A DNA stretch of 64,000 nt from Eledone cirrhosa. Lineage: Eukaryota. Shown here piece after piece: positions 15,929 to 44,723 of this stretch (its first letter is position 1; each line of letters begins with the position of its first letter). A program made the translations under genes and the position numbers. The notes under the pieces are model-generated. The model was not told the origin of the DNA. It worked only from the letters and a program-made list of their open reading frames with translations, and did not search any database. Location: assembly GCA_964016885.1 (NCBI GenBank), contig OZ024742.1:290222001-290286000 (forward strand), written 5' to 3'.

Positions 15929-16162
15929 ATTTTGAAGATGTCAAGAAGGCATGTTTGAAGAACAGCTTAATGGAAAATCACCTGACTGTGGATAAGTGTA
16001 AAGAAATAAATAGTATTCTGGTGAAAACAACTTCACACACCACCTCTTCCATTATTCAATGCTATTTTGAAAACAAGAATAAAAGTTCTGGTGGACTCCT
16101 TGCTTCAAAACCTGAAGAAGTAACTAACAATACTTATATGGTAACTTTTCAAGAGAAATCAG
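15929..16162 (+). CDS. PARP14-like gene, exon B (RRM-like)
   Basis: AAG acceptor, donor G|GTAAGT, phase 1-1. YFENKNKSSGG matches the YFENxxxSGG motif of PARP10/PARP14-type RRMs. Confidence 0.85.
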
Positions 16163-16219
16163 GTAAGTTGTTTTCCGCTCTCTCTTTTTATCTGGTCACC
16201 CACACAGTACTGGGTGTTG

Positions 16220-16250
<31 letters not shown>

Positions 16251-16349
16251 TGTTGTTGTTGTTAGGGCAATTGTTTGGCAGAATCATTATAGTATTGGAC
16301 AAAATGTCTTGTGGTAAGGGCTAGTGGTACCATTAAGGTTAACTAACAG

Positions 16350-19300
16350 CAAGGCCAGATTCCGACCTTGGGGGTCCTGGAACACTTCAGGTTTGGTGTC
16401 CTCTTTCATAGACTAAAATAGAATACACAGCAAACCTTCAAATTTACATATCAAAATCTTCTTACTTCATGTAATTGGAATTGACAAATTGTATATACAT
16501 ACACATGTTAAATGGAAAATATAACATGGAAATGTATATATATACAAATGGAAATATATATAATATGTAAATGCTAAATGTTATACATAAATGTACTGAG
16601 CAATTAGTGTCAGTGCTGTTGCAGAGTTACACTAAAAACTTAGGTCAAAAACATCCCACATCTATCATAGGACAGTAAAAAAAATCTGTCAATGCTAAAC
16701 ATTATCTAAACTAAGTACAGTAAGTTATGCCTATTTAGATCTAAGTGCATCACTACAATACCGACAAAAAGTATTTCTACACTTGGCATTTGCAAAATCT
16801 TTAATTAACTCATTAAACTGCATCATCTTCAGAACACTGCTTTCTACATCCTGTAGGCACAGAGCACTTAGTCCTTATGAGGGCCAATTTGTTGAATGAT
16901 TTCTCTCCTGGACACCTAGTAACTATCAAGCTCAAATATGTTATAAGCACTTCATCAACACTTGGAAGAGTATCAGTAAAACTGACTGTTGAGATGGCAT
17001 GAATCATGACCTGAACTTGGAAAAGGCTGCAAAGTGGACAAGTTCTATTAACACATTACTAAAATCATAGGGAAAAGTAGTGATAAGTTATTCAGCTTCA
17101 GTTCTTATCTCTGCACGAGGGAAGCTACAGAAGTTTACTATTGTTTGAACTTGTCATGCACTAATTCATAAGCTACCCTATGGACTAGGTGCTTTTGCAT
17201 AACCACCCTACAGGTTGGATTGGATTAGGTGCGTGTGTTGTGGCACCACAGCACAGTGGGAGAGAAAGCGACATATCAAATGGGTGGCCTTGAAGAGAAT
17301 GAACTGTGCTTGGTAGTGTATTGTGGAATGTGCCCAGTTTTCCATGCATGAGTTGGACTGAAAAGGTGTATTAGAAATTTGGCAGGGAATAGGTGGGAGC
17401 ACATCATTATCATTGTTAAACATCTTTTGCCAGACAGTCTATCACATTCTGTGACTAGGCTGGACAGGTGACTACAACCAGTTTATATGTTGTTTTGTTT
17501 TGGTATTACCTCTGTTGGCTTGATGCCATCCCTAACTCCATTAGAGCATTTTATCATGCTACAGAGTGGGACATGTCCAGCTTTCCATGTTGGCATTAGT
17601 TGAATGTGGAAAAGGGGAGGTGTATCCATCTCTGTGTTGGTATGGGTTAGGCTAGGATAGGAGGAGACTGGCTGTCTTTACATGTTAGAAAGAGTTGGAC
17701 AGGATGAGCAAGGTGTGGGAAGAACTAGGCATTAAAAGTCCCACAGCTGAGTTTTTTTTGGGGGGTGGGGTGGGGTGACAACCTCTTCTGAGACTGATGT
17801 TGAATTTACATCATATTTGATTCTTTTTCTTAGCAGCCTCCTGGCTGTCATTTTATAGTCTGTGATGGCATCCAGTTTCAATTCTTCATACCTATTCCGA
17901 ATAAATCTCAGAAACTTTTCCAGAATCAGTTAGATCCACCACATTATTCAGGTCAACTTTAACTCTTTGAAAAGTTTTATTTGTGCTGTTGAAGTACAAG
18001 AATGAAGTTCCATCTTTTGGCCATCAGGGCAATTTCAAGATTTCATTTTGTTTGCCAATCGTCTGTACTTCATATCTTGCTTCAGGTGTTTGCTCCAAGT
18101 CACTTTCAATATCTTAGAATGTATTTTCAATGCAGTTGTACCCATCTATGTGGACTTCAGTAATTTTAACTCTTGCTGACCAATGTATGTGTATTTTTTT
18201 TTTTTTTGTACATCCATTCACTCATTCATTTACTGCCATTCTACCTTCCTGTGTCTCCCCCTCCATGCAGCTCCTTTTCGCTCTCGTTTTCGCTCTCGTT
18301 TTCCATATATATAGGTGAGCTATGCTGCCCTCTTACCAGCACTTTCCCTTCTAACCACACACACCAGCCACCCACCCCTGATACCGCTCGGTGCCCCAGT
18401 CCCCGGCCCCACCCCCCACCCCTCCAAATCGACACCTGCACCACTTGTGGCACTACTAACAAACGGAAGAGGGGCCGGAACTGTTTGGGGTGCGGCTGCT
18501 TCCACCACCTCACCTGCGTTGGCTTGACTCGTCGCGCTTCCAATACCCTTGCAGTGTGGAGGTGCAGGAGCTGCCTGTTCCCCACGTCTTCCCAGCCACA
18601 GCCGTCTGGCACACCACCAGATGGGACAGCGAGCTTGCCTGACGCCCGAGCCTCGCTGGTCAACATCGCTTGGCTCAGGCGGCTCCGGAAGATCCCACTC
18701 AGGATCCCGAGAGCGGCACGGGTGCCAGTAGCCGATGCACTCGCTTCCTCGATTGAGAGCGTCCTGGACTCCAATCGAGCCAGTGACTGGGAGCGGCTGT
18801 TCTATTTCGCCCACTTGCCCTCGGCCTCCCCAGCTCTGGCGCTGACCGGGGCGGCCAGTCAACAGCAGCCTTTGTCAAGGCCAATGTCTCGTCATTTGGG
18901 CAAGCGCCCATTCCAGGGACGCCACACACCCCACCCTCAGATACCCCCTATCCTCTACCCCCGAGGCCAGCGCCAAGCGTTTGCGTGACCAGGTAAACGC
19001 AAAGCTTATCATGGGTGATGTCTCAGCCGCAGTCAGAGTTGTTGCCTCAGAGGACACTGTCCTCCAACCCACCGAGGAGATCCTGGCTGCTCTGTGGCTC
19101 AAACACCCTGAGCCACCCACTGATCTCAGACCCATACCCCCACCTGACCCCCACCTGCTCCTTGTGGCTACTGATGCAGATATGTCCGCCATCAGGTCCT
19201 TCCCAGCTAGCAGCTGCGGAGGTGTTGATGGTCTCCAACCAGGCCACCTCAATGAGTTGACATCCCCCCTCTCCGCTGAGGCCGGGCGCTGCCTTCTGAG

Positions 19301-21800
19301 TGCAATCATGGTGCTCACCAATAGGCTCATTCATGGTGCCCTCGACCCTTACGCCCGAGGCCTCTTTTTTTCTCAGGAAAAAAGAGGGTGGCATACGCCC
19401 CATTGCTGTGGGCAATGTCTTCCGGAGGCAGGCTGCCAAGGTGATCTGCAAGTCCGTCACACACAAACTGGGTGAGGAGTTTAGTCCGGTGCAACTGGGG
19501 TCGGCGTGTCCGGTGGCTGTGAGGGAGCCTCTCATGCAATCAGGCAGTTCTTCAGCAGCTGCCCATCGCTACCGGTATCTAGGCACCTCATTGTCAAGCT
19601 TGACATGAGGAATGCCTTTAACTGTTTACGCCGGGATCATCTGCTCGAGGCCTACCTCAGCTGAGCCGCCTCAGCCTACCCGCTGGCCTACCTGTCATAT
19701 GGAGCATGCTCCTAGCTGCTGATACGGTCATACCCTCGGCTATTGGGGTCCAACAGGGCGACCCTTTGGGACCCCTCCTGTTCACCCTTGGTATTGACCA
19801 TATCGCCCGGAGTATCACGGGCCCCTCTCAACGTTTGGTATCTGGATGATGCTAATTTGGACGGGCCCGTATGGACGGTCTGCCAAGACCTTCAATCGGT
19901 GATTCCTGCCCTGGCGGGAACTGGCCTCCAAGTCAAATCGGCCAAGTCGGAGGTGGTGAACGTCAGCCTTGATGCTGTGAGCTTCGCAGCCTCCATCTTG
20001 GACGTGCGGTCCATTCTCCGCAAGGTTCAGGTGACCCCCAAAGAGGATGTCCTCATCCTCAGGTCACCGATCCACCCGCCGGCCATCCACTCCACTATCA
20101 GATCCAGGCTTCAACAGCTCCAGACTCTCACGAGCCGACTGGGCTTGATTGACGGCCACCCAGCTCTCTTTCTGCTGAGGAACTGCTTTGCCATGCCTAA
20201 GCTCCTCTATACACTCCGCAGCGCTCCATGCTACACCCAGACATCTCTCCTCGCTGACCTCGATACTTGTATCTGAGCAGCAGCCGAGGGGATATGCAAC
20301 GTCAAGTTTGACGACATAGGGTGGCAACAGGCCACTTTACCTGTCAGGTATGGCGGCCTAGGCCTCCAGTCCCCGATCTCACCAGCTTTGCCGGCGTATC
20401 TTTCGTCGGTAACCTCGTGCAGCGTCCTCGTCAGCAGGGTTCTTCAAAACACAACAGAACCCTCTGTGTTCAGAGAACGTGAGGCCGCCTGTGAGACGTG
20501 GGATTGGATGGGACTAGCCCAGTAGACGTCCCTCCTCTTTCTCCCCCTGTTGACGTCAAGTCCCCCAACGCACTTGGGATGCCATCCAGTGCAGCCTGGC
20601 CTCAGACAGGCTCACGCGCCAGCTCGACCGGCACCGCCTTGCTTGTTTTCGTGCGGCCTCCAAACCCCACAGTGGTGCCTGGCTCCATGCTCTGCCCTCC
20701 TCCACTGGCACGCAGCTAGACAACCATAGCCTGCGAATTGGCGTTTCCCTGAGGCTCGGCCTCTGGATCTGCCAGCCACACCAATGTCGCTGTGGTTCCA
20801 CCGTGGCCTCTTTCGGCCTCCACCTGCTTTCCTGTCGCCACAGTGCTGGCCGCACTCCACGCCATACTGCCCTCAACGAGGTCATTAAGCATGGATTGGA
20901 CGCTGCAGGCTTCCCTTCCCAGCTTGAGCCGGTGGGGCTGAATTGAGGGGACGGCAAAAGGCCAGATGGCATGACCATCTTCCCGTTCCGCGGTGGCAAA
21001 CCCCTCGTCTGGGATGCCACTTGCACCGACACTTTCTGCAGTCTGCGACTGACCCAGGTTCTTTTGCACGTCGGGCTGAGGGGGTCAAACTCCTCAAATA
21101 CCGGTCGCTCTCTGACAGGTTTGCGGTCGTTCCCCTGGCAGTGGAAACTTCTGGTGTCCTCGGCCCCAGGGCTACCTCCTTACTCACCACCATAGGCGCT
21201 GAGCTGGCCAGCCATAGGTGTGAGCCCAGCGAGTTGGAGTGGCTTTTCCAGCGCGTCTCCCTTGCCGTCCTCCAGGGAAATGCCTTCTCCATTCCGTCCG
21301 CCGGGGCTGTGGGTGGGTCCCATCGCGTACCAATACATTAGTTAAATACCATTCTTTCATCACAAAGAAATGATATTGCTTTATACAATTGGATCTTTCC
21401 CACTGTGTGGAATAAGCAACGTGGCAGTGACAAGCTCACACTTTATAGTTAGTGTTTATATATATCATTTCAAAGACTTCATTAGATTTGCTTGTCTCTG
21501 TGTTGATGCAAAAAAAAAAACAAAGTATCAAGCCAAAATAACTGATAGCTTCAGTACAACAGTAAGTAATAGCCTGTTCAACATGATTCACTGAATTAGC
21601 TGCATAGGGGGTAGAGACTGCTGCTGCATTCTTATCCTTAAGTCAAGCTTGCATTTCTGTATAGTGACCAGGAATATTGTTGGCATTGTCATAGGACAAC
21701 CCACTGCAGTTTTCAAAATCAATTTCTTCAGTTTTTAGAAATTCTATCTAAGAGGTAGCTAGTACTTCGGCCTTGTGAGAAATTAAATTTCTACTGGCCC
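16350..21800 (-). mobile_element. Ancient hAT (Tip100/ZMYM1-like) transposon relic, interrupted by later insertions
   Basis: Colinear minus-strand remnants: NCSGLSYDNANNIPG (~21690), PCAAHSLN-like (~21600), FF.ASTQR (~21510), WSARV (~18175), TNKTFQ..DL (~17970), dimerisation domain LIVTRCPGEKSFNKL (16813..17007), DFANAKCR (~16790). Confidence 0.75.
18240..21345 (+). mobile_element. CRE-like non-LTR retrotransposon (PHD - RT - CCHC - restriction-like endonuclease), frameshifted
   Basis: RKKEGGIRPIAVG, KLDMRNAFN, GVQQGDPLGPLLF, WYLDD. Zinc motif CRCG...HLLSC...RHTALNE and RLE motif RPDG...VWDATC...AVETSG. N-terminal C4HC3 at about 18436-18575. Visibly GC-richer than the flanks. Confidence 0.85.
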
Positions 21801-22670
21801 TCCAGTGGATGATGTCTGATCATTGTGGGATATGCTTGGCTTCCCTTGAGGGACTAAAAGAGGGTGTTTATATGCTACTTGCAGTGGGGTGGGGGTGGAG
21901 GCCGCGAGATTATTATGTCTGGCTTTCCTAGGCTGGGTGTCAGGGGCAAAATGTTAACTGATCAACATGAGCCATATTTGCTGCTTCCAACGTGATTTTA
22001 TATGATTTTATATGTTAAGTTACCATCTTAATCTTTAGCATGCTGAATTTTTGTAATGAATTGTTTCCCTTGACCCTGGATTATGTATTAAGGGGAGATC
22101 ACTCTATTAGTGAAATAAGATGTCTAGAGTGCTCAGAAGGTTAATAATGAAATAATAATTTTACAAAATCCTTCAAAATTCTTCATTATTTAATTGAAAT
22201 ACTGCATTTCATTAAAAATATTGGAACAATATTTCATTTACAAAAGAAACAATAAAAAAAGAAGGAAAAAATGGCAACACATGCACACTCAGTTGCACAC
22301 TACAGATAGAAAATGCTGTATCACTTATAAAAACTCTTTGAGGAAAGTGAAGACAGTTTCAGCATTACTGTGAGTGATAGCGAAACTAAGACACTGAAAT
22401 AACTAAGCTTCCTCATGAGCATCATCTTATATTTCAGTAAAATATGTCATCAATGATGACAAAAACATTGCTGTCAGAAGTCCAGCTATCACAAATGCTC
22501 AATTACCACAGAGAAATAGGATTTACCAAACGAAATTGGTTTTTTCAGTAGTTTATTCACCACCTTCACAGTAGTATATAGGATGTAAGATAGAGTGAAA
22601 GAGTCACTGATAGTGGCATCTTATCTAACCCATGGGCAAATTGTAAGACCACCAAACCTCTTCCCATTAA

Positions 22671-24096
22671 CCCTTTAGCATTCAAACCGACAAGATTATG
22701 TCCCCTTTCATTTATTCAAACCAACAAAAACCGACATTTAATACCACACGGAGATCTCCTTCTAAAAATAAACATTGACATCATCGAAATCTCGTCAATT
22801 CGAGATTATTGCGAGATAAAACTCTTACGCGCGAAAATTAACTCTTAGTATAGTTAAAGAACTTGCGATAACACGTGTTTTTAACGTTGAAAGTGTAACA
22901 TGGCTTCCAAAAGTAGCGACAACGAATTTGAAGGTTTTACGTCCAACGACATTCGAGATCAAAAAGAAACAGAAGATAATATCAGTGATTTATCTTCAAA
23001 CGAATCAGATATATTTATTTCTGATATATCTGATAGTCACTTTGAAAGTGAAAGAGAAGATTTGACTGACACCATTGAAAAAACACCAACGTGGTTGAAA
23101 GAAACAACATCGATACATGTTTCGGATTTTACTGAAAATATTGGACCACAACACACATTATCACCCGATGCTAAAGCACTGGATTATTTTTTTTTATTTT
23201 TACCACAAACTTTCTTCGAAGTTGTGGCAAATCGCTATGCACAACAACAAATTTATAATATCGGAAAACCCGATCTGTTATGGCGTCCGACAGATTCTGC
23301 CGAAATGAAAGCGTTTTTTACCATAAATATTATGTTTGGTATTAAACAATTTCCACGACTGGAATTATTGGAGTACTGATATAAGGTTTGGTGACCCTTA
23401 TATATCTAGTATTATGGCAAAAATGAGATTCATCAAATTAAACCAGTATTTGCATCTGGTTGATACTTCAAATGCCCCTGGTAGAAATGAATCAAATTAC
23501 GACCCACTGTACAAAGTACGACCATTAATTGAAATATTGTCAGAAAAATTTAAAAGTGTGTATAAACTTATATATTGGGAACATTCTGTTACGTAAATTT
23601 ACACCATACATTTACAGAGTACATTGCTAATATTATTTTGACTGGTGAAAAGGTTTTATAAATTTTTTTCAATGAAAATATTTGCCTGGAATGTAGAGAA
23701 AGACTAAAACCTTGTACTGATTACACCTGCATTTTTAATTAATTCACCTGTTCGGAAAACTACTAGAATTGATGGAAATCAGCATCTAGGTCATTATTGG
23801 ATTTTTTTGCAACAAATCTAACAGATAAGGCAGATAAAGTTTAAATTTTTGGTGTTTATCCATAACGTTATTACTTTTACACCTGCCCATAAAAGTCAAA
23901 TTTAACAAAAAAAATCAGGTAAAAATATATAATTGTAAATTATAGTTATTTCTACTGACAAAATTTCAAGTCTGCACATAGAAAATTAAAGTAATTACAA
24001 ACAAATAAAATTGATAACTCTCTTGAGTATAATTAAGTGAAAATAATGCAAATAGATGAACATGACATTTGACAATTCAATGTGAATGCTAAAGGG
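22671..24096 (+). mobile_element. Internally deleted piggyBac element, copy 1
   Basis: TTAA on both sides, TIR CCCTTTAGCATTCA. PGBD4-like N-terminal half (22900..23596, DPLYKVRPLI) with a 2-bp frameshift relative to copy 2. Confidence 0.93.
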
Positions 24097-24100
24097 TTAA

Positions 24101-25560
24101 CCCTTTAGCATTCACATTGAATTGTCAAATGTCATGTTCATCTATTCGCATTATTTTCACTTAATTATACTCAAGAGGGTTATCAATTTTATTTGTTTGT
24201 AATTACTTTAATTTTCTATGTGCAGACTTGAAATTTTGTCAGTAGATGTTTAAATAACTATAATTTACAATTATATATTTTTACCTGATTTTTTTTGTCA
24301 AATTTGACTTTTATGGGCAGGTGAAATTAATTAACAGGTGTAAAAGTAATAACTTTATGGATAAACACAAAAATTTAAACTTTATCTGTTAGATTTGTTG
24401 CAAAAAAATCCAATAATGACCTAGATGCTGATTTCCATCAATTCTAGCAGTTTTCTGAACAGGTGAATTAATTAAAAATGCAGGTGTAATCAGTACACGG
24501 TTTTAGTCTTTCTCTACATTCCAGGCAAATATTTTCATTGAAAAAAATGTATAAAACCTTTTCACCGGTCAAAATAATATTGGCAATGTACTCTGTAAAT
24601 GTACGGTGTAAAATTACGTAATAGAAAGTTCCCAATATATAAGTTTATACACACTTTTAAATTTGTCTGACAATATTTCAATTAATGGTCGTACTTTGTA
24701 CAGTGGGTCGTAATTTGATTCATTTCTACCAGGGGCATTTGAAGTATCAACCAGATGCAAATACTGGTTTAATTTAATGAATCTCGTTTTTGCCATAATA
24801 CTAGATATATAAGGGTCACCAAACCTTATATCAGTACTCCAATAATTCCACAGTCGTGGAAATTGTTTAATACCAAACATAATATTTATGGTAAAAAACG
24901 CTTTCATTTCGGCAGAATCTGTCGGACAACATAACAGATCGGGTTTTCCGATATAAGAAATTTGTTGTTGTGCATAGCGATTTGCCACAACTTCGAAGAA
25001 AGATTGTGGTAAAAATAAAAAATAATAATCCAGTGCTTTAGCATCGGGTGGTAATGTGTGTTGTGGTCCAATATTTTCAGTAAAATCCGAAACATGTATC
25101 GATGTTGTTTCTTTCAACCACGTTGCTGTTTTTTCAATGGTGTCAGTCAAATCTTCTCTTTCACTTTCAAAGTAACTATCATCATTATCAGATATATCAG
25201 AAATAAATATATCTGATTCGTTTGAAGATAAATCACTGATATTATCTTCTGTTTCTTTTTGATCTCGAATGTCGTCGGACGTAAAACCTTCAAATTCGTT
25301 GTCGCTACTTTCGGAAGCCATGTTACACATTCAACGTTAAAAACACGTGTTATCGCAAGTTCTTTCACTATACTAAGAGTTAATTTTCGCGCGTAAGGGC
25401 TTTATCTCGCAGTAATCTCGAATTGACGAGATTTCGATGATGTCAATGTTTATTTTTAGAAGGAAATCTCCGTGTGGTATTAAATGTCGGTTTTTGTCGG
25501 TTTGAATAAATGAAAGGGGACATAATCTTGTCGGTTTTTGTCGCTTTGAATGCTAAAGGG
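24101..25560 (-). mobile_element. Internally deleted piggyBac element, copy 2 (inverted, sharing TTAA 24097-24100)
   Basis: Same TIRs, TTAA at 25561-25564. Open 238-aa ORF 24614..25330 that stops before the catalytic DDD core. Confidence 0.93.
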
Positions 25561-25744
25561 TTAAACCATATATTTGTTGTTACAGCTCTCACCTGTACCT
25601 GACCTCCTATGAGGCTGTATCTCCTAGGGTGTTTCTCAGGAGTTTTAATGATAAGGGCCCCAGTTCTATCATATATATATATATAATTATGTTGAAATAG
25701 TATGTGTAACGGCTTGTACGATTGTGAAAGCTTCGTAGGGGGTT

Positions 25745-25781
<37 letters not shown>

Positions 25782-25959
25782 GTGTTAAAAATTGAATGTA
25801 TAAGCCATTATGGTTCTCACTTCCCACCCCCTGCCCCACCTCCACCACATTCGGTATACATGCCCGATGCTGTATGCTAACCATTCCCTCGTGAATATAT
25901 CATAGAACAGACAAGGGTTGGACGGAGGCTCTGTAAGCCGCAATGTAGGCAACTCGTCT

Positions 25960-27945
25960 AGGAGAGCAACCACTCCGAATAAATTGGTGCTGGGTAGAGA
26001 AGTCCCTTAAGTCCAGTAAGACAACTTCCCTAGTGCTGGTGGCACGAATAAAAGCACCCAGTCCATGCTGTAAAAATGGAGGGGGAGTTAGGACCCCTGA
26101 GTCCAGTAAGACATCCTCTCTAGTGCTGGTGGCACGAATAAAAGCACCCAGTCCATGCTGTAAAATGGAGCTGGTGTTAGGAAGGGCATCCAACCAGTAT
26201 ATATACTACTGCCAAAAACTATGAGTACAACAAATGAAAGTTGCAACAACTGCGTCAACAACAATAACACTAACCATGTTAGGGCTGCGCACAGTAGTGG
26301 GGTGGCTGGTGCAGTCATGTGCGAGAACCCCCGTCATCAAGCAATCGCACAACAGGAGCAAGAATATGAAGATGTTGCATCTCAGAGTTGCCACACTTAA
26401 TGCTGGCACTCTAACAGGTAGATCTGGTGAGATAGTGGAGATGCTGGAGAGAAGGCATGTGGATGTGTGCTGCGTGAAAGAGGTGAGATGGCGAGGTGCC
26501 TCTGCAAAACTAAACATAGGCAAACATCTTAGTTATAAGCTTTTCTGGGTTGGTAACGATGATGGATTAGGTGGGGTAGGCATTTAACTAGCTGAGAGAT
26601 GGATCGATAAGACAATAGAGGTAGTTTGAGTCAATAATAGAATAATTAAGCTTAGATTAGTTGTAGGCAAGAGATTGCTGATAATCATTTCTGCCTATGC
26701 TCCCCAGGCAGGCCTAGGTAAAGAAGAGCAACTTTTAGAAACAGCCGCAATGACAGAGGACGGAGACATCATTATACTAGTAGAGGACTTCAATAGTCAT
26801 GATGGACAGCTCCAGGATGGATACACTGGGGTACATGGTGGTCATGGTTATGGCTCAAGAAATGAAGAAGAAGTGAGGCTTTTTGAATTTTGTGATGCAA
26901 GTGCACTAACCATTTGCAACACTAACTTCAAGAAACCTACCAACCACCTAATAACCTACAAATCAGGCGAGCACATAAGCTAGGTTGACTTCTTGCTAGT
27001 TAGGCAGCGAGACAGACAGATGGTGTCAAATACTAAGGCATATCCCTAGGAAGAATGTACCCCACAGCATAGGTTAGTTGTTAGTGACATCTTAGTAAGC
27101 AAGAGACAAAAGGAGACATACAGGAAGGTATGGAAAAGAAAGGTCTGGAAGCTAAAAGACCTTTCACTAAAATATGGATTTAGAAAAGATGTGTTTGACG
27201 AAAATGAAGACGATTTAGAATCGTATGACATAGATGATAACTGGAATTTCTTACGTGACAACTTACTGCAGGCTACTGATGAGTGACCTGGTGGTGGAAC
27301 AGCTTGGTAGATAGGGCCATTAGAGACAAAAGACTAGCATGGAATGCTTGGAAAAATGGAGGGAGTAGAGATAGATACACAGCTGCTAAGAGAGAAGCTA
27401 GACGTCAGGTGTACTTAGCACACAGGGAGGCTGAGAGTAGGTTTGCCAATGTTCTGCGATGGGAAGATCAGAGACGTGCGGTGTTCTGCATTGCAAGACT
27501 GTGTCAGTGCAAATCAGGATGTTGTTGGAGATAAGTGTGTCCGGAATGATGCCGGTGTACTTAGTGTCACGAATGATCAGAAAAAGGAGGCCTGGAAATG
27601 TCATCATGAGAGGCTGATGAATGTCGAGAACGAATGGCAGAGAGAGAAATTACCCCCCAGTAGATCTGACAGCGGGACCAGCTATTGAGATTGACAAATA
27701 TAGGGTCCAAGAGGCAATTAAGGAAATGAAAAATGGTAAGGTCGCTGGATCGTCGGGGATAGTTTCTGAGATGCTGAGGGCATCAGGAGAAGTAGGCACT
27801 AAACTGGTTGCAAGCATCACCAATCAAGCTATATATGGCGGTGTCATACCCAAAGATGGTGCAGCAGTATTCTCATAAATTGCTACAAAGGTAAAGGGGA
27901 TGCTCTGGAGAGGAGCAATTATAGGGGCGTAAAGCTGATGGATCA
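25960..27945 (+). mobile_element. Degraded RTE LINE, 5' part (APE endonuclease to start of RT)
   Basis: VATLNAGTLTGR, DVCCVKEVRW, SAYAPQ, YKGKGDALERSNYRG with many stops. ~65-bp tandem duplication at 26010-26165. Confidence 0.85.
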
Positions 27946-27954
27946 GCTTTATGC

Positions 27955-29225
27955 CCCTACCTACCACAGTGCGGACTGCGACACAGATCACTCCCTTGTT
28001 ACCAGCAAGGTGCGCATGTCACTCAGGAAAATGCACGACTCCAAGAAGAAAGGACGCCCATGCATCAACACCTGCTGCGCCAACAATCCAGAGAAGACTA
28101 AGCAGTTCCTGAGCAACTTTGGCGAAAACCTTGCCGAAAAGATGCCCACCGCCGACACTATCAACACCATTGACTCTGGGTAGTCTCACCTCTGGGACTC
28201 TGTCTATAACGCCGCTATCTCTGCCTATGGGAAGAAGGAGCGCAAGAACGCCAACTGGTATGAGGCCCACTGGAAGGAGATGGAACCTGTGACCATGGTG
28301 AAGAGAAAAGCCCTCCTGGTTTACGAGGCAGCGACAAACCACAGCACACTAGCTGCACTTAGGGCCGCCAGGAAAGCATCCCAACAGACCGCCCGCAGAT
28401 GTGCCAACACCTACTGGCTGGATCTCTGCAACAGCATCCAGGCAGCCACCGAATCAGGCAACGCAAGAGGGATGTATGAGGGAATCAAGAAAGTGACCGG
28501 GCCCACCCCCACCAGGTCGGCACCACTCAAGTCCAAGTCAGGCGACGTGATCACCAATCAAGGGAAGCAACTATAGCAATGGGTGGAGCACTACCTCAAG
28601 TTGTACGCAACCCAGAGCGTCATCACCAACTCCGCCCTTGTTGCCATCCCCGACCTGCCGGTGGTGGAAGAGCTCGACATGTCGCCCACATGGGAGGAGC
28701 TCGGGAAACCCATTGACTGCCTCGCCAATGGGAGGGCCCCGGGGAGCAACGGCATACCTGCGGAACTTCTGAAGCACGGGATACCTGCGCTGATCCAGCC
28801 CTCCTCTGCTGGGAGAGGGGACACATACCCCAGGACAGGCGTGATGTTATCATCATCACCTTGTACAAGAACAAGGGAGACAGAAGTGACTGCAACAGCT
28901 ATCGAGGTTCTCCCTTCTTAACATCGTGGGAAAGGTGTTTGCCTGAGTTGTCCTGACTCGTCTGCAGACCCTTGCCTGCCGCGTCCACCCTGAGTCTCAG
29001 TGCGGCTTCCGTGCTGGACGATCAACTGTGGATATAGTGTTCTCATTGTGCCAACTTCAAGAGAAATGTCAGGAGCAGCAGATGCCTCTCTACCTCGCCT
29101 TCGTCGACTTGACGAAGGTGTTTGACCTGGTCAGCAGGAGCAGACTCTTCAAGCTTCTTCAGAAGATTGGCTGACTCCACACCTGCTTGCTGTTGTCATC
29201 TCGTTCCACGAGAACATGCACAGTT
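27955..29225 (+). mobile_element. Internal fragment of a different, GC-rich RTE/BovB-like LINE
   Basis: ADCDTDHSLV (APE end), APGSNGIPAE, HPESQCGFRAGRST, QEKCQEQQMPLYLAFVDLTK. Confidence 0.85.
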
Positions 29226-29229
29226 TTAT

Positions 29230-29735
29230 TTTTTAAGTTTGTCTTCATGACTTGTTCTTTCGATCTCACTCGATAAACCCGCCATTGGCTTTGATGACGG
29301 CCTCAAGGTGGCCTCGGAACCAGCTACAGGCCTTCGTCACTGTCCCCCGACTTAGGCCTCTAAAGGCACTTGTGATCCTGGCCTTCAGATTGTCTTTCGT
29401 ATTGCAGCTAGATCTGTTGGTGTCTCGTTCCACTGCGCCCCACACAAAGAAGTCGAGGGGGTTGCAGTCAGGCGAGCTGCAAGGCCAGATGTCAGGTGAA
29501 GTGTGGTCAACGAAGTTCTCTGACAGCCAGGCTTGGTCTTTCGGCTGGTATGGCAGGGTGCTGAGTCTTGCTGGCACAGATACGGCCTACCTGCAGCTAC
29601 CTGGTCGATCCAGGGCTTTACTACCTTGCTCAGAATGTGGATGTAGCCATCGGTGTTCAGCTTGAGGCCCTCAGGGAAGAAGTGAGGTGGCATGACGTCA
29701 CCTTGACTGCTGACGACACCTAAGACCAATGTTGC
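29230..29735 (-). mobile_element. Tc1/mariner transposase fragment, DD37D (maT-like)
   Basis: QQDSAPCHTS...WPCSSPDCNPLDFFVWG. 37 residues between the 2nd and 3rd catalytic Asp after correcting one 1-nt frameshift. Confidence 0.8.
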
Positions 29736-29780
29736 CATATACATGTATATACATATACATGTATATACATATACATATAT

Positions 29781-30225
29781 ATACAGATATCTATCTATCT
29801 ACACGAGAATGCTGAGGATGGCTCTGAACATTAATCAGTATACACTGAGGATGAAGAACTCAGAACTGTATGGGAGCCTCCCAAATGTCAACTCAAAAGT
29901 GACACAGAGGAGACTGAAGTTAGCTGGACATGTTCACCGACATCCAGAGTTGAAACTGCACTCAGTGCTCCTGTGGGAGCCCCTGCATGGACACACTGGA
30001 AGAGGAAGAACGAAGTCAACATATGTTGATATACAGATATATATATATGCAGTTTCAACTCTGGATGTCGGTGAACATGTCCAGCTAACCTCAGTCTCCT
30101 CTGTGTCACTTTTGAGTTGACTTTGGGAGGCTCCCATACAGCCCTGAGTTCTTCATCCTCAGTGTATACTGATTAAAGTTCACAGCCATCCTCAGCATTC
30201 TCGTGTACATAGATAGATATCTGTA
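29781..30225. repeat. Fold-back inverted repeat (~180-bp arms) of a LINE C-terminal fragment
   Basis: 29781-29961 is the imperfect reverse complement of 30048-30225. Encodes RRLKLAGHVHRH. Confidence 0.9.
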
Positions 30226-30960
30226 TCATCATCATCACCGTTTTACGTCTGTTCTTCCATGCTAGCATGGGTTAGACGGGTTGTCCTGTTGCGGGCAGTG
30301 TCCGGTCGGCTGACCTTGTCTTGCTCATATGGGAACTGATTCTGGCTTGATTTTTACAGCTGGATGCCCTTCCTAACACCAACCTCATTTACAGTGAGTG
30401 CTGGGTGCTTTTTTTTCGTGGCGCCTACACGTCCACTTTACAGTGTGGGATGGGTGCTTTTTTGCTGTGGCACCTCCACGACCACTTTGCAGTGGGAGGG
30501 TGTGGGGGCATATTGTCTATATGCTTCAACTTGGGCTTGTACCCGTGGGGGGTCGGCTCTTCTTTATTACTGCGTGACGCCAGAGGTCACGGTCATGTGT
30601 CATCACCCTTGAGAGGTGTAATTGGGTAAGGTCGGCTTTTATCACCTCATCCCAGGTCTTCTTGGGTCTCCCCACTCCGCGGTTTCCATCGACTTCTAGT
30701 GCTCTGCACCTTTTTATGCAGCTGTCATCCTTCATACGCATCACATGTCTATACCAACGCAACCGCCTCTCCTGCACACAGCATTTGATTCCTCTTATGC
30801 TCAGTCTCTCTCTCAATTCATTTATGCTTTGCCGTTTGCGTATATTACTATTACACATCCATCAGAGCATGCAGGCTTCGCTTCTCTCTAATTTACGCAA
30901 TTCTTCCACAGACAGCGCCCAGGTCTCACTACCACGTAACATTTCTGTTCGAATACACCA
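30226..30960 (-). mobile_element. RTE subfamily B 3' fragment
   Basis: Colinear with 37218-37945; (CAT)n tail on the + strand. Confidence 0.9.
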
Positions 30961-30987
30961 CATCATATATATTTATATGTATATATC

Positions 30988-31044
<57 letters not shown>

Positions 31045-31364
31045 CGAAGGAAGTGTGGTAAGGAACCAGATGGACCATAACGCACCAGAGTACTCAATAC
31101 TTAGGATAGTAGAGTGGGTAATAGGAATATGATTAACCCTGACGGCAGAGCTCAAGCCGTTTTGATGGCTATTTCTGGACTCAGAAATAGCTGTTGAGGG
31201 TTAAACATTTTCCTATATATATATATATCAGGGGTGGAGAGTCCGTGCATGCAATGCATGCAGTGTATGTGTTATAGAATCTTGAGCTGATCAATTGCGT
31301 CGGTTGAAGCAAGCAGAAGTTTGGCTGCTTACTAAAACGTATAGACACAAAAAAGGATAACACA

Positions 31365-31397
<33 letters not shown>

Positions 31398-31729
31398 GGC
31401 AGCTTTGGGGCAAGCAGAATTTTGACTGCTTACTAAATCGTAGACACATAAAAAGATAACACACACACTAGATAACACTACATGCGGCTTTGACCGGGAG
31501 GGTCATTTAGAGGGAATTGGTGGTGGTAGTGGTGGTGGTGGTGGGGGGGGGGGCTAAGGCTGCACAGCCCCACTTTCCACCATGGCGATTGGACTGCATG
31601 CCCTGCTTTCCAGGTTACCCTTCGCCACTGATATATATATATGTAAAAGGAAAACAGAAATAACAACACAATCGGTACAGTATATGGAAGGTATATATTA
31701 GTTTAACGCTTGATGTAGCAGGAAGAGGG

Positions 31730-31765
31730 TCTTAACGTTTCGGACGCTAGTCCTTCATCAGAAGA
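31730..31765 (-). ncRNA. Minimal type I hammerhead ribozyme motif (Penelope-associated type)
   Basis: Minus strand TCTT-CTGATGA-A-GGAC-TAGC-GTCC-GAAACGT-T-AAGA: intact core, stem I TCTT/AAGA, stem II GGAC/GTCC, palindromic ACGT stem III. Confidence 0.75.
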
Positions 31766-31799
31766 AAGAATGAGAAATAAAATAGATTAAGGGGACGGG

Positions 31800-33350
31800 C
31801 GGGATGGAATTGATCTTTTTCCAGTTAGCCTTGTAGAAGTTAAGGCTTGATAAGTTCCCGGTGCTTCTTGATGGTTGTGTCTCTGTTGACTCTCTCGGAC
31901 CACATATCATTAGTTCTACTAAGTTATGATCCGAGAAAATCGTTGGTGTCACCTTTACATTGTGGATGAGCACTGCATTGTTTGTAAAGCAGAGATCCAG
32001 GATATACTCGCCTCTTGTTGGGAGGAATACTGCCTGTTCCATGAACAGCCTGTGTGTATGGGCTAGCAGGGACTAGTCTGTCTCTGTTCTAGTGATGTCA
32101 TTCCAAGGAGGAGGTGGCTCTCAGGCCATTTGACCTTTGGCAGGTTAAAGTCTCCCAGCAGCAGAATGTTGAGAACCTGGTCCAGTTTGTCAAGGACCTC
32201 TTCTATCTTTCTGAGGCTATCCTCAAATTTACCCTCTTGACTAGGGGCATCGGGTTGCCGATATGTGACACATATTACAGTTTTTAGTTGATCCATATGT
32301 ACTATCAGTGTGTCACAGACTGAGTTTGAATGTGTCAACAGTACAAAGGGTGTGACATCTTCATGGATATACAGAGCAACCCCACCATGAGATCTCTCCT
32401 TCCTGTCTGAACGAAATACAGTATATTTTGGTAGATGTATTTCCGCATCTGCTATACTGCTTGTCTGGTGCGTTTTGGTTAGTGCCATGCATATTGCTTA
32501 ATTGCTTATGGCTAAGTCTCTCAGGTAGGAAATTGTACTTATGTTAGTGTGTTTCATCAGACCTCTGACATTCAACAGCAGCACTGGTATCACATTAGGG
32601 GTGTCAGCAATGGCTGTCAGTGTGGCACCTGGCCTGGTGTCAGCAGCAGCCACCCTGGGTCCCTTAATTGTGGTGGTCTCGAGTTCTGGTGTGAGTGACC
32701 CTGGCTCTAAAAACGATGCAGCCAGGTCAGTTGCCCCACAATCCTCTCCGCCATCTCTATAAAATCTTTTGCTCTGCTTCCACCGTCTGTATCTCATCTG
32801 CATATGCGTGCATCGGTTCTGGTTTTGGCTGGGGCATTTTGTGTGAGTAGGTTGGGCGTAGCTCACTTGGGGCCTGGGGTAAGTGAATCTACAGCCTGTC
32901 TCTGTTTCTCCATGCCAGCAGGTCCCGTTCCTGAAGAACTTGTATGTAACCTGGGTTTTCTTGCTCCCAGTGTCTCAGTGCCTTCTGTTCTTCCTTTGGA
33001 CAGTTGTCCACTGGTCCATTTCTGCTTGGTTATCTTTTGGAGGGGGATTTCGCTTCTCACCTTTACCGCTTGCTTGTTGGTTGCCCGGCCTGCCTTCCTT
33101 GACTGTGGCGGCAGATATCTCATTTGCTTTCAGGTCCTTGTTTGTGCTTTCTTCCTTTTCGTTTTCTTTCTCCCCGTTTTTCTCTTCCTTGAGTACACGG
33201 ATTAGCATGGCCATGTGTAGCGCTATGAGGACTTAGGCCCTCTCAATTTCTCTTCTTTTTCTGTCTATTTGCGCGAAAGTCCTCAGAAAGCCACGGTTCT
33301 TCAGAGTCTCCGCAATCGTTTTGGTTGGTGAGTAATTTAAGGAGCGATTT
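31800..33350 (-). mobile_element. CR1/L2-group LINE 5' portion (ORF1 remnant plus APE endonuclease), 3' part missing
   Basis: LLLNVRGL, RSDRKERSHGGVALYI, LLLGDFNLP, PTRGEYILDLCFTN, FSDHNLV. Confidence 0.8.
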
Positions 33351-33388
33351 AGATATATATATGTATATATATATGTATATATATATGT

Positions 33389-33580
33389 CCTGGGGTCCCT
33401 ATCATTCCACTGCAAAGTGGTCGTGTAGGCACCACGGAAAAAAAGCACCCAGTACTCACAGTAATTGAGGTTGGTGTTAGGAAGGGCATCCAGCTGTAGA
33501 AATCGAGCCAGAATCAGTTCCCGTCCAACCCTTGCAACCAGGGAAAAAGCAGACGTAAAACGAAATGAAATGAAATGATG
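33389..33580 (+). mobile_element. SINE family 2, 3' half
   Basis: Matches 44530-44723; (GAAAT)n tail. Confidence 0.8.
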
Positions 33581-33975
33581 AGTGGGAAATGAAATTTCAT
33601 TTCATTTTTCCGTTTATCGTTTTCGGTGCACCCGGCCGATTAACCCACTCGATATGCAAATTGGGATACTCAGCCGTTAATATGCATAAGGAAAGTATAT
33701 ACTTTCGGACATTCAACTATCTGGTAGGAAGGTATACGTTGCTGACGATAGCTAACAAGCTTGAAACTAGTACAGCGTTCCTTTGTCAGTGTTGAACAAA
33801 CGAGCAATTGTGGTTGCTAGACACTATGGCTTAATACGGGATGTTTGTTTACAAACACACCGAGCATTATAATAAATGTTCGGTGAATCCATACGTACAT
33901 ATGTATATGTGTGCATGTATGTATGTATATATACATACTACTGTACTATACTATATGTATGTACGTATACATACT

Positions 33976-34043
<68 letters not shown>

Positions 34044-34324
34044 GAAGGAAATGTGGTAAGGAACCAGGTGGACCATAACGCACCAAAGTACTCAATACTT
34101 GGGGTAGTAGAGTGGGTAATAGGAACCAGTAAGACCCTGACAGCTGAGCTCAAGCCGTTTCGACGGCTAATTCTGGACGGAATTAGCCGTCGAAACGGCT
34201 TGAGCTCAGCTGTCGGGGTCTTACTGGTTTATATATATATGTATATGTATACACATATATGTATGTATATGTATATATGTATATGTATGTATATATATAT
34301 ATGTATATATATATGTATATATGA

Positions 34325-36528
34325 ATCATCATCATCATCATCATCAACGTTTAACGTCCGTGTTCCACGCTTGCATGGGTTTGGACGGGGGTATTCCCAC
34401 TTGAGGCAAGAGTGATTGTCTTGCTCGCATAGGACTGTCTGGCAGGTTTTCTACAGTTGGATGCCCTTCCTAACACCAACCACATTTACAGTGTGGGACT
34501 GGGAGGTTTTTACCGTGTTGCCTACACGGCCACATTACAGCGTGGACTGTGTGTTTTTTTGTCGTGACACCTACACGGTCTCATTTGTTTCGGCCTGGAT
34601 GTTGTGGCACCAACATAACTTTACATAGGAGGGGGTGGTGTGGATGGGGGTGTGGGTGGTGGGACGGGAGTGTATTTTGTTAGAGATGCCTACTGGCTGT
34701 ATTAGGTTTTACTATGTATTTAGGTAAGGCGGGTCTTCTCTATTACTGAGTACCGCCAAAGGTCTCGGTCCAGTGACATTGTCTTGGAGAGGTGTAAGTG
34801 TGTGAGGTCGGAGTTTATCAGCTCGTCCCAGGATTTTCTAGGTCTGCCTATTCCGTGGCTATCGTCTATCTTTATTGCCCTGCACTTTGTTATACAGCTA
34901 TCGTCTTTCATGCGCATCACGTGACCATACCAACGTAGCCTTCTCTCGAGTAAACAACATCTGATCCCTCTTATTTCTAATTTTTTCCTTAGTTCGTTTA
35001 TGCTTTGCCGTTCACGTATATTACTATTACACATCCAGCGGAGCATGCAAGCTTCTTTCCTCTCTAGTCTGCGTATATCCTCTGCACACAATGCCCAGGT
35101 CTCACTGCCATGCAACATTGTTGTTCCTATGCAGGCATCATACAACCTGCCTTTCATTTTTAGGGAGAACCCTTTAGTGGCTAATAGTGGTATAAGCTCT
35201 CTGAACTTTTCCCATCCAGTTCTGACTCTAGCTACTGTACTTTCAGAGCACCCTCCCCCACTGCTGATTTTGTCACCCAGGTAACGGAAGCTGTCCACTA
35301 TTTCTATAGAACCCTCTGCGCAGTTGAAAGAGCTAGTATTTTGTGGGCACTTGCTGCTACTTATTGCACCAGAGCACCGGCCACATGTAAAATCTATGTT
35401 CTTAGTTAGCTTACCTGTGATCCCACTACATCTTTTATGCACCCATACTTTGCATTTGGGACACAAAATGGAGTTTCTACCTACGCCTTTCCTACACACT
35501 GAGCATGGCCACTTCCCGGAAGGGACCGCCGCCTTATTTTCTTTCCTACAAACTAGAACTTTGGTCTTAGCCAGGTTAATTTTAAGGCCTTTTGATTCTA
35601 GGCCATGCTTCCATGTTTGGAATTTCTTCTCTATCTCGGCCATTGATTCAGCTATGAGTGTTAGGTCATCTGCGTATAGGAGTTCCCATGGGCAGCCGGT
35701 CTTGAACTCCTCTGTTATAGCCTGAAGGGCAATAATAAATAGTAGGGACACCAACTTTTACGCTAAACTCTTCACTATATTCGTTGTTAATTCTAACCTT
35801 GCTGACTGTTTCTTTATACAAGGCTTGTATAGCTCTCACAAGCCATTCGTCAACACCTAGTTTTCTAAGAGCCCACCAGATAATGGAACGAGGGACTCTG
35901 TCGAAGGCTTTCTCCAAGTCGACAAAAGCTAAGTATAGGGTTTACTTTTAGCTAGGTACTACTCCTGTAGTTGTCGTACAATGAAAAGAGCGTCTGTGGT
36001 ACTTTTGCCTGACACAAACCCGAACTGCATTTCATCTAGATCAATTCTCTCTCTGATTAGTTGCACTATTACTTTTTCCGTGACCTTCATGACCTGGTTG
36101 ATTAATTTAATGCCTCTATAGTTACTCCTATCTAGGGCATCTCCTTTACCCTTATAACGGTTAACGATGATGCTGCTACGCCAGTCCTTCGGAACAACCC
36201 CATTCTGTACGACTTGGTTAACTATCCGGGTGACCATGGTGTGTCCCACCGTACCAGATGCCTTCAGCATCTCGGCAACTATTTCCGAAGGCCCAGCCGC
36301 CTTATCCGTCTTCATATCCTTGATTGCCTTACTTATTATACTACCCTCGACTAACATTGCTGGTCCCTCTATTGGCTCGATGTGGGGGAGACTGTCTTTC
36401 CCCCATTTATTCTCCTTATTTAGTAGCCTTTCATAGTGACACTTCCAAGCTACCTTCTTATCAGCGTCGGTGATGGCAAGTACGCCGTCATCATTAAGTA
36501 CACACTTCTCCCCGACAATATCACGGTT
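34325..36528 (-). mobile_element. 5'-truncated RTE LINE (subfamily A), frameshifted
   Basis: ORFs 35959..36645, 35666..35917 and 34720..35754 contain YADD and the PHD insert. (CAT)n tail. Confidence 0.93.
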
Positions 36529-36585
36529 TATATATATATATATATATATACATATGTATATATATATATATATATATACATACAT

Positions 36586-36897
36586 GGAGGCACATGACTT
36601 AGTGGTTAGAGCATTGGCCTTGCAATCGAAAGGTTGTAAGTTCAATTCTCAGACCGGGTGATGTGTTGTTTCCTTGAGCAAGACACTTTATTTCACATTG
36701 CTCCAGTTTACTCAGCTGTAGAAATGAGATGATAGGACTGGGCCCCTATCATTCCACTGCAAAGTGGTCATGGAGGTGCCACGGCAAAAATGAGGTTGGT
36801 GTTAGGAAGGGCATCCAGCTGTAGAAATTAGGCCAAAATCAGTTCCCATCCCACCCTTGCAAGCAGGGAAAAGCGGACGTAAAATGAAAAAAATGAA
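36586..36897 (+). mobile_element. tRNA-derived SINE, family 2
   Basis: A/B boxes, CCTTGAGCAAGACACT central domain, RTE-like 3' end. Confidence 0.85.
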
Positions 36898-36914
36898 TAT
36901 ATATATATATGTAC

Positions 36915-36965
<51 letters not shown>

Positions 36966-37217
36966 CATATAGGCAACCACCTCTCCTGCACACAGTATTT
37001 GATTCCTCTTAAGCTCAGTCTCTCTCTCAATTTAATCATGCTTTGCCGTTCGCGTATATTACTATTACACATCCATCAGAGCATGCAGGCTTTGCTTCTT
37101 TCTAATCTACGCAATTCTTCCACAGACAGCGCCCAGGTCTCACTACCACGTAACATTTCTGTTTGAATACACCACATCATATATATTAATATGTATATAT
37201 CTATATGTATATATATA

Positions 37218-41650: not shown

Positions 41651-41685
41651 GGGGGTGGTAGGAACTGAGGGGGGGGGTAGGAACT

Positions 41686-42088
41686 ATATATATATATATA
41701 TATTTATATATAACGATAAATTAACGCAGGCATAGGCCCTCGTTAATCCCTGTAAATAATGTGCTCAAAGGAGAAGATATCCTGAGCTCATTATTTACAG
41801 GGATTAACGAGGGCCTATGCCTGCGTTAATTTATCGTTTTATATATATATATTTATATATAACGATAAATTAACGCAGGCATAGGCCCTCGTTAATCCCT
41901 GTAAATAATGTGCTCAAAGGAGAAGAGATCCTGAGCTCATTATTTACAGGGATTAACGAGGGCCTATGCCTGCGTTAATTTATCGTTTTATATATATATA
42001 TTTATATATAACGATAAATTAACGCAGGCATAGGCCCTCGTTAATCCCTGTAAATAATGTGCTCAAAGGAGAAGAGATCCTGAGCTCT
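41686..42088. repeat. 149-bp tandem unit, each a ~55-bp-arm hairpin, 2.5 copies separated by (TA)n
   Basis: AACGATAAATT... starts at 41712, 41861 and 42010, with its reverse complement between successive starts. Confidence 0.93.
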
Positions 42089-42469
42089 TTAAAATACAAT
42101 ATGTTGAAAAGGTAACACACCAGAGAGAGATATACAGTGCGTTATCAATAAGACAGGGAAACAAACCACCAGTGTATGGAATCTATAACCTATGAAAGGC
42201 AGACTATAGACACGATAATTAAAAATATAAATTAAAGCGTAAATAAATACCTTCATAACTATAAATGTTTGGTGAATCCATACGTACATATATATATGTG
42301 TGCATGTATGTATATATACATACTACTGTACGTCTGTATACATATATGTATGTACGTATACATACTTATATATATATATGTATATGTATATGTATATGTA
42401 TACATATATATGTATGTATATGTATATGTATGTATATATGTATATGTATATATATGTATATATATGTAT

Positions 42470-43670: not shown

Positions 43671-43691
43671 TATATATGTATATATGAATAT

Positions 43692-43796
<105 letters not shown>

Positions 43797-43893
43797 TTGG
43801 AATAGAATGAAACGAAATTTCATTTCTCACTCTTCTCACTATTGAGTACTTTGGTGCCTAATGGTCCACCTGGTTCCTTACCACATTTCCTTC

Positions 43894-43934
<41 letters not shown>

Positions 43935-43961
43935 ATAATAATAATAATATGTATATATATA

Positions 43962-44352
43962 TACCTAAATACATAGTAAAACCTACTACAGCCAGTAGGC
44001 ATCTCTAACAAAATACACCCCCGTCCCACCACCCACACCCCATCCACACCACCCCCTCCTATGTAAAGTTATGTTGGTGCCACAACATCCAGGCCGAAAC
44101 AAATGAGATTGTGTAGGTGTCACGACAAAAAAACACACAGTCCACGCTGTAATGTGGCCGTGTAGGCAACACGGTAAAAACCTCCCAGTCCCACACTGTA
44201 AATGTGGTTGGTGTTAGGAAGGGCATCCAACTGTAGAAAACCTGCCAGACAGTCCTATGCGAGCAAGACAATCACTCTTGCCTCAAGTGGGAATATCCCC
44301 GTCCAAACCCATGCAAGCGTGGAACACGGACGTTAAACGTTGATGATGATGA
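43962..44352 (+). mobile_element. RTE subfamily A 3' UTR copy
   Basis: Near-identical reverse complement of 34335-34725; (GAT)n tail. Confidence 0.9.
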
Positions 44353-44377
44353 TATATATATATACATATATATATAT

Positions 44378-44719: not shown

Positions 44720-44723
<4 letters not shown>
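44378..44723 (+). mobile_element. tRNA-derived SINE, family 2 (most complete copy)
   Basis: TGGCTTAGTGG A box, GAGTTCAATTC B box, RTE-derived 3' end, (GAAAT)n/(GAT)n tail. Confidence 0.88.

What the first reader, a model, noticed from the sequence alone, without database searches (positions are those of the whole stretch)
22667..25564. Two piggyBac copies tail-to-tail at one shared TTAA form a 2.9-kb intronic palindrome
Seen: TTAA-[copy 1 +]-TTAA-[copy 2 -]-TTAA with only 4 nt between arms of 1426 and 1460 bp. The arms differ by scattered substitutions and indels, which argues against a read-chimera artefact and fits either two insertions or an old local hop. Inference: the PARP14-like pre-mRNA would fold a ~1.4-kb dsRNA, a substrate for ADAR editing or Dicer, possibly silencing the family or stimulating dsRNA sensing from inside an immune gene. 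The outer ends could also move as a composite element.
Basis: partly seen in the sequence, partly recalled or inferred. Interest (0 to 1): 0.75.

Follow-up and report, generated by a model that had tools for sequence, protein, structure and literature searches.

The report
Double piggyBac insertion makes intronic palindrome
Two copies of a small jumping gene sit back to back at one shared four-letter target inside an intron of an octopus-type PARP14-like gene; they belong to an older and a younger subfamily and the site is empty in three duplicates of the gene, so they likely landed there one after the other, a known kind of accident with no function shown.

Summary
The structure is real: TTAA-[1,426 bp]-TTAA-[1,460 bp, inverted]-TTAA, arms about 97.5% alike, inside a 30-kb intron of a PARP14-like gene. 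Both arms are 1.47-kb internally deleted derivatives of a young 2,575-bp piggyBac; five examined copies of that parent keep an intact 558-aa transposase. The arms are not sisters (AU p=1e-5): arm 1 is an older type, arm 2 is 0.34% from a very young subfamily. Three tandem paralogs carry the same site as one empty TTAA. So arm 2 likely inserted later into arm 1's target duplication: a double-insertion dimer, known from Drosophila and bacteria, and one of 61 end-to-end junctions here. It is plausible because the family is strongly clustered (17 neighbour gaps within 50 kb against 0.27 expected) and neighbours are unrelated, which points to insertion hot regions rather than local hopping. A long hairpin in pre-mRNA is predicted, but editing, small RNAs and immune effects are untested, and movement as a composite is unlikely (two left ends; no second copy). 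Read contigs hint at an allele with arm 1 alone.

The parts
22667..22670 (.). Left TTAA target-site copy
   Evidence: single empty TTAA at this site in three paralogs
22671..24096 (+). Arm 1: older-type copy of the 1.47-kb non-autonomous piggyBac derivative; 14-bp terminal inverted repeats; frameshifted 5' transposase remnant 22900-23596
   Evidence: PF13843 E 2.6e-5; 2.16% from family consensus; 12 private or near-private substitutions
24097..24100 (.). Shared TTAA: right target copy of arm 1, reused as target by arm 2; centre of the palindrome
24101..25560 (-). Arm 2: young-subfamily copy of the same element; open 238-aa truncated transposase frame 24614-25330, lacking the catalytic core
   Evidence: PF13843 E 2.6e-21; 0.34% from L019-L022; 3 private substitutions
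25561..25564 (.). Right TTAA target-site copy
   Evidence: (X3 record 17 joins arm 2's left end to this flank)
15929..16162 (+). PARP14-like exon upstream of the host intron (RRM-like)
   Evidence: contig 24 of run X4 lies on 15928-16162 and runs off at both borders
16163..46125 (+). Host intron, 29,963 nt, GT..AG, frame kept across it
   Evidence: P0002 residues 70-155 then 158-630, and P0005, P0009, P0010 likewise, span it with no exon between
46126..47669 (+). PARP14-like large exon downstream of the host intron; gene continues past the window to macro and PARP catalytic exons
   Evidence: (40-53% to Octopus PARP14-like proteins)

Best explanation
Two copies of a 1.47-kb non-autonomous piggyBac derivative stand tail to tail at one TTAA, and they likely arrived by two separate insertions: an older-type copy first, then a young copy into the TTAA that the first insertion had duplicated. 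Shown: the structure, the empty ancestral site in three paralogs, the different subfamilies of the arms, an intact parent transposase, and strong clustering of unrelated copies. Inferred: the order of insertion; mobilisation by the 558-aa transposase in trans; that reuse of the site follows from insertion hot regions of gene size (probably open germline chromatin). Predicted, untested: a 1.4-kb hairpin in the pre-mRNA that ADAR would edit as a by-product. The dimer is most likely selectively near neutral and not a mobile unit.
For: Arms not sisters: log-likelihood 81.6 lower when held together, AU p=1.0e-5 (25 of the 102 aligned copies used). Arm 2 shares a 9-bp deletion and two substitutions with L019-L026; arm 1 shares a 9-bp and a 10-bp absence and many substitutions with other older copies. 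Three paralogs at C3:290.38, 290.60 and 290.86 Mb have one TTAA with both flanks joined. Parent element 2,575 bp with 558-aa ORF in 5 of 28 long copies, PF13843 + PF13842, piggyBat E 2e-57. Clustering: 17 adjacent gaps of 50 kb or less among 99 right ends on C1-C5 against 0.27 expected, maximum 4 in 20,000 simulations; one of the 17 is a duplication with identical flanks. 14 neighbour pairs with both sequences in hand are no closer than random pairs (median 3.10% against 3.12%, p=0.67). Exact TIR ends are 106 per Mb in flanks of family copies against 14 per Mb genome-wide. Given that clustering, an end-to-end dimer in this sample has a rough chance of 4-8% against about 0.1% under uniform insertion. 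61 exact end-to-end junctions exist genome-wide. Double insertion is the described main source of TE dimers (PMC5932611).
Against: 4-8% is still a low chance, and there is a spike of very close or nested cases (this dimer, L064, L002/L121, L116, L049, L111) that hot regions alone may not explain. Open chromatin or gene position of the hot regions was not tested. The central junction was not seen in reads (cut). Arm 1's private changes could partly have been gathered at an unsampled donor site, which weakens the order of events. Only 99 of 143 exact right ends were placed (one search lists the first 100).
Confidence: 0.76

Rival explanations
1. Self-targeting (homing): transposase bound to the ends of resident copies draws incoming elements to TTAA sites in or beside them, so the dimer is the extreme case of an active preference for kin.
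For: Unrelated neighbours cluster about 60-fold within 50 kb and about 140-fold within 5 kb. A long copy is nested in a short copy at its internal TTAA near position 1321 (L064) and a short copy sits at the matching TTAA of a 75% related element (L121). Related piggyBacs (72-85%) lie within about 1 kb of the focal copy at about 7 of 106 loci (L046, L049, L067, L086, L111, L116, L121).
Against: TTAA sites at or beside a TIR are not used more than their local share: 5 of 100 elements (4 events) against 77 of 2,604 flank TTAA sites, Fisher p=0.23. Gaps are spread flat from 1 to 50 kb and none falls between 200 kb and 1 Mb, which looks like domains. piggyBac is known to prefer open chromatin near starts and ends of genes and to have hot and cold TTAA sites (PMC7337890; PMC3064801).
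Confidence: 0.12
2. The palindrome is kept because its dsRNA regulates the PARP14-like gene, silences the family or feeds dsRNA sensing.
For: It lies in an intron on the transcribed path. The central 700 nt fold at -475 kcal/mol, z=-71; 25 perfect runs of 21 nt or more cover 1,210 nt. In squid, ubiquitous editing falls mostly in introns and 3' UTRs over repeats (PMC9068888).
Against: Present in 1 of 4 paralogs; arm 2 has only 3 private substitutions, so there has been little time for conservation; arms show no homogenisation (none of arm 2's 3 private changes is in arm 1); 8 other inverted neighbour pairs of the family exist. Editing of intronic inverted repeats is the default and is not evidence of a role.
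Confidence: 0.06
3. Assembly artefact: two alleles with opposite single insertions, or a fold-back read, were joined.
For: No read record spanning the centre was seen. In runs X1 and X2 the contig with this locus's right flank stops matching at 25547, where an element right end would diverge from arm 2's left end.
Against: The arms differ at about 35-39 sites and 6 indels that match different subfamilies, which a fold-back cannot give. X3 holds arm 2's left end on this flank. A mis-join would need two independent insertions at the same TTAA anyway. The X1/X2 pattern is what an arm-1-only allele beside the dimer allele would give.
Confidence: 0.04
4. One arm arose from the other by a local hop or an inverted duplication.
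For: Adjacent position only; piggyBac shows mild local hopping in yeast (PMC3064801).
Against: AU test rejects sisterhood (p=1.0e-5); arm 2 ranks arm 1 60th among 101 neighbours.
Confidence: 0.02

Closest known systems
Double-insertion TE dimers of Drosophila melanogaster (McGurk and Barbash 2018, PMC5932611; seen: passages and section 9; supplements not read)
   Same: Two complete elements separated by one target-site duplication; formed by insertion-site preference during active transposition; inverted dimers occur but are rarer (P element: head-to-tail in 55 of 85 strains, head-to-head in 8). Here 29 direct against 8 inverted among 37 cleanly classified junctions.
   Different: Here a piggyBac with a 4-bp TTAA spacer in an octopod; assembled at full length; arms from two subfamilies; empty ancestral site preserved in paralogs.
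piggyBac superfamily: piggyBat of Myotis lucifugus (PDB 9c0f) and Trichoplusia ni piggyBac (PDB 6x67)
   Same: TTAA duplication, ends CCC...GGG, asymmetric subterminal repeats, DDE_Tnp_1_7 plus cysteine-rich tail; parent protein hits both (E 2e-57, 7e-40).
   Different: The arms are internal-deletion derivatives without the catalytic core; activity of the octopod transposase is not tested.
Intronic inverted-repeat pairs edited by ADAR (cephalopod 'ubiquitous' editing, Albertin et al. 2022, PMC9068888, passages seen; inverted Alu pairs, recalled)
   Same: Two inverted copies in one intron predicted to pair in pre-mRNA.
   Different: Longer (1.4 kb), closer to perfect, no spacer; editing not observed here.
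Symmetric-end (LE-LE) piggyBac constructs (bioRxiv 10.1101/2022.09.26.509586; passages seen)
   Same: The dimer's outer ends are two left ends.
   Different: Wild-type T. ni transposase hardly excises and does not integrate LE-LE donors in cells, so the analogy argues against composite movement; not tested for this transposase.

Membership tests
piggyBac superfamily | TTAA target-site duplication with empty site a single TTAA | tested here: met
piggyBac superfamily | Short terminal inverted repeats starting CCC, asymmetric subterminal motifs | tested here: met
   14-bp TIR at all four ends; one short motif repeated only at the left end and another mostly at the right
piggyBac superfamily | Transposase with PF13843 domain, three catalytic aspartates and cysteine-rich tail | tested here: met
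   Met for the 2,575-bp parent (the naming of the three aspartates as catalytic is recalled from T. ni piggyBac); the arms keep only the N-terminal part
piggyBac superfamily | Demonstrated cut-and-paste activity with precise excision | not testable with these tools
   Indirect only: identical copies at different sites and intact ORFs
Double-insertion TE dimer | Two complete elements separated by exactly one target-site copy, with a target copy at each outer end | tested here: met
Double-insertion TE dimer | The two elements have independent origins | tested here: met
Double-insertion TE dimer | Single-copy intermediate exists or existed | tested here: inconclusive
   Clip at 25547 in X1 and X2 fits an arm-1-only allele, but the 7 leftover letters were not shown
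Composite transposon | The unit recurs at other sites with its own target duplication | tested here: not met
   11 junction-pattern places; only this one is family-family: 8 inspected as loci, the other 3 show a MITE end in the matched letters
Functional dsRNA / endo-siRNA hairpin locus | Transcribed, edited or diced, with an effect on a target | not testable with these tools
   Folding only; no raw RNA reads available

The most novel reading that the evidence does not exclude
A still-active octopod piggyBac homes to its own kind: transposase held on resident ends steers new copies into and beside older copies, making nests and perfect palindromes, and this locus preserves all three stages (empty site in paralogs, arm 1 alone on one allele, dimer on the other).
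Probability: 0.12. Interest if true: 0.62.

Novelty: new member of a known kind. Interest (0 to 1): 0.3.

Why it matters
As it stands it is a clean natural example of a known process, with unusually good internal controls. It points to two things worth more than the dimer: a young octopod piggyBac with intact transposase copies (a candidate tool for cephalopod transgenesis), and strong clustering of its insertions, which could map open germline chromatin or show self-targeting. If arm 2 is polymorphic, the locus is a ready allele pair for asking what a 1.4-kb perfect intronic hairpin does in an animal with very high ADAR activity.

Tried and rejected
1) I first read the empty-site contigs as the other haplotype and the low depth of the occupied site as palindrome drop-out. 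Wrong: their differences equal those of the paralog at C3:290.60 Mb, and three empty paralogs explain the roughly 1:3 depth. Heterozygosity of the whole dimer is not shown. 2) Preference for TIR-adjacent TTAA: not supported against a local control. 3) Arm-to-arm gene conversion: none seen. 4) Local hopping as the cause of clusters: neighbours are not sisters, apart from two pairs that come close (L075/L076 at about 146 kb, L002/L121). 5) Expression: no RNA holder listed. Run X4 (kind not on record) has a contig on exactly exon 15928-16162 running off at both borders, a weak hint of a spliced transcript, but a paralog has a near-identical exon, so it cannot be assigned; no excess of A>G or T>C in X4 contigs, which cannot show editing anyway. 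RAD-seq run X5 laid only 4 reads on the stretch: uninformative. 6) Homolog search with the small exon found nothing; the large exon worked. 7) L178 looked like a second tail-to-tail dimer but is a pair of 220-bp MITEs. 8) Nine paper searches listed no report of a natural inverted piggyBac dimer or of this family; the library lacks most subscription papers, and no supplements were read (Table S2 of PMC5932611 lists inverted tandems by family and may bear on novelty). 10) One search failed on a script error and gave no result.

Full report
Observation. The sequence shows TTAA at 22667, a 1,426-bp element, TTAA at 24097, a 1,460-bp inverted element and TTAA at 25561. It is the only long inverted repeat in 20,000-28,000. 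The arms differ by 39 substitutions in 1,424 paired columns and six indels in the pairwise alignment, 2.46% in the family alignment; the innermost 50 nt pair perfectly. Each arm begins with a 5' transposase remnant matching PF13843, so the tails meet. The window is G000:C3:290,222,001-290,286,000 of a 3.0-Gb genome; best protein hits are to Octopus, so an octopod is inferred.

The element. 143 exact right ends exist genome-wide. From the loci fetched, 103 element rows were extracted (75 short, 28 long; two rows were duplicates, and four more right ends had no matched left end). The long form is about 2,575 bp; 5 of 28 keep a 558-aa ORF with PF13843 over its full length and PF13842, closest among solved structures to piggyBat (E 2e-57) and T. 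ni piggyBac. The short form is an internal deletion near position 920. Several short copies at different sites are identical, so the family moved recently. The same TIR is shared by a roughly 220-bp MITE and others: 42,316 exact ends.

Origin of the two arms. Arm 1 is 2.16% from the consensus of 28 other short copies and shares diagnostic indels and substitutions with older copies; arm 2 is 0.34% from L019-L022 and shares their 9-bp deletion. An AU test on 25 of the 102 aligned copies rejects the arms as sisters (p=1.0e-5). Arm 1 has 12 private or near-private substitutions, arm 2 has 3, and none of the 3 is in arm 1. This excludes a fold-back artefact and a hop from one arm, and suggests arm 1 came first.

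The empty site. The host gene is one of four tandem paralogs on C3. All three others carry left flank, one TTAA, right flank. Both insertions therefore postdate the duplications. Read contigs with the empty site carry the differences of the paralog at 290.60 Mb; they are not an allele, which corrects my first reading. Contigs with this locus's own right flank differ between runs of one sample: X3's matches arm 2's left end to 25540, while those of X1 and X2 stop at 25547 with 7 letters left over. That is the base where a right end departs from a left end, so an arm-1-only allele is likely, but the letters were not shown.

Why the same site. Uniform insertion gives this family about a 0.1% chance of any end-to-end dimer. 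But the family is clustered: among 99 right ends on C1-C5, 17 adjacent gaps are 50 kb or less (0.27 expected) and 4 are 5 kb or less (0.03 expected), with none between 200 kb and 1 Mb. One of the 17 is a duplication. For 14 pairs with both sequences, neighbours are as distant as random pairs; many are long-short or old-young. Flanks hold 106 exact TIR ends per Mb against 14 genome-wide, and an 83% related full-length element sits in another intron of this gene 45 kb away. With such clustering a dimer has a rough 4-8% chance. TIR-adjacent TTAA sites are not favoured over their local share (5 of 100 against 77 of 2,604, p=0.23), which counts against homing, though several nested or very close cases keep it open. 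piggyBac's known taste for open chromatin near gene ends and its hot TTAA sites (PMC7337890 and PMC3064801, passages) fit hot regions; this was not tested here.

Other dimers. 61 exact end-to-end junctions exist (control 0) against 18-26 expected under uniform insertion. Of the 50 listed and inspected, 29 are direct, 8 inverted and 13 unclassified; all but this one involve the MITE. Only this junction is family-family. So it is the longest member of a common class, and the unit has not been copied.

Host gene and RNA. Homologous proteins run from exon 15929-16162 straight into exon 46126-47669 and on to macro and catalytic exons beyond the window. The central 700 nt fold at -475 kcal/mol (z=-71). 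If the intron is transcribed the hairpin would form, and squid data show widespread editing of repeats in introns (PMC9068888, passages). Nothing here shows editing, small RNAs or an effect. By strand, 9 of 16 close pairs are inverted, so this is not the family's only possible dsRNA source. Composite movement would need two left ends, which wild-type T. ni transposase does not integrate in cells (bioRxiv 2022.09.26.509586, passages).

Comparison and verdict. Dimers by double insertion, including inverted ones, are described (PMC5932611, passages and section 9). Recently active piggyBac families are reported in Octopus vulgaris (PMC13282606, passages). My nine searches listed no natural inverted piggyBac dimer, which is weak evidence. 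The finding is a well-documented new member of a known kind. Interest 0.3; the clustering and the intact transposase are the better leads.

Noticed in passing
L056, L062, L064, L079, L081 (e.g. L062:1170-2843): Full-length 2,575-bp piggyBac copies with an intact 558-aa transposase ORF; candidate active element.
   Followed up: partly
G000 C1-C5, right-end list: Family copies cluster about 60-fold within 50 kb although neighbours are unrelated; no gaps between 200 kb and 1 Mb.
   Followed up: partly
L064:2885-6911; L121:1046-3582; L116/L115: Nested insertions into kin: a long copy inverted inside a short copy at the internal TTAA near 1321; a short copy at the matching TTAA of a 75% related element; a short copy inside an 85% related long element.
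   Followed up: partly
L031-L045, L140-L174: MITE end-to-end junctions: head-to-head is rare (by-eye classes 2 head-head, 31 direct, 11 tail-tail, 6 unclear; chi-square p=0.004), and 5 of 13 inverted against 2 of 31 direct junctions have one arm cut short just past the TIR (p=0.017), a hint of palindrome decay (classes partly set by eye).
   Followed up: partly
G000:C3:290.24-290.92 Mb; also C4:83.04-83.29 Mb, C3:128.6 Mb, C2:221.6 Mb: Four tandem PARP14-like paralogs; one has about 600 bp missing from the large exon and one has an insertion in the small exon; seven further matches to the small exon elsewhere.
   Followed up: partly
window 9641-14959: Ty3-like LTR retroelement (RT, RNase H, integrase; LTRs 447 bp, 99.6% alike) inside a 27-bp minisatellite just upstream of the first detected coding exon.
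   Followed up: no
window about 18190-21439: GC-rich high-copy insertion in the same intron, absent from the paralogs; its frames look like a broken non-LTR element (by eye; no Pfam hit for the one frame scanned).
   Followed up: no
L126:6677-9197: An 83% related full-length piggyBac in a later intron of the same gene.
   Followed up: no
   Followed up: no
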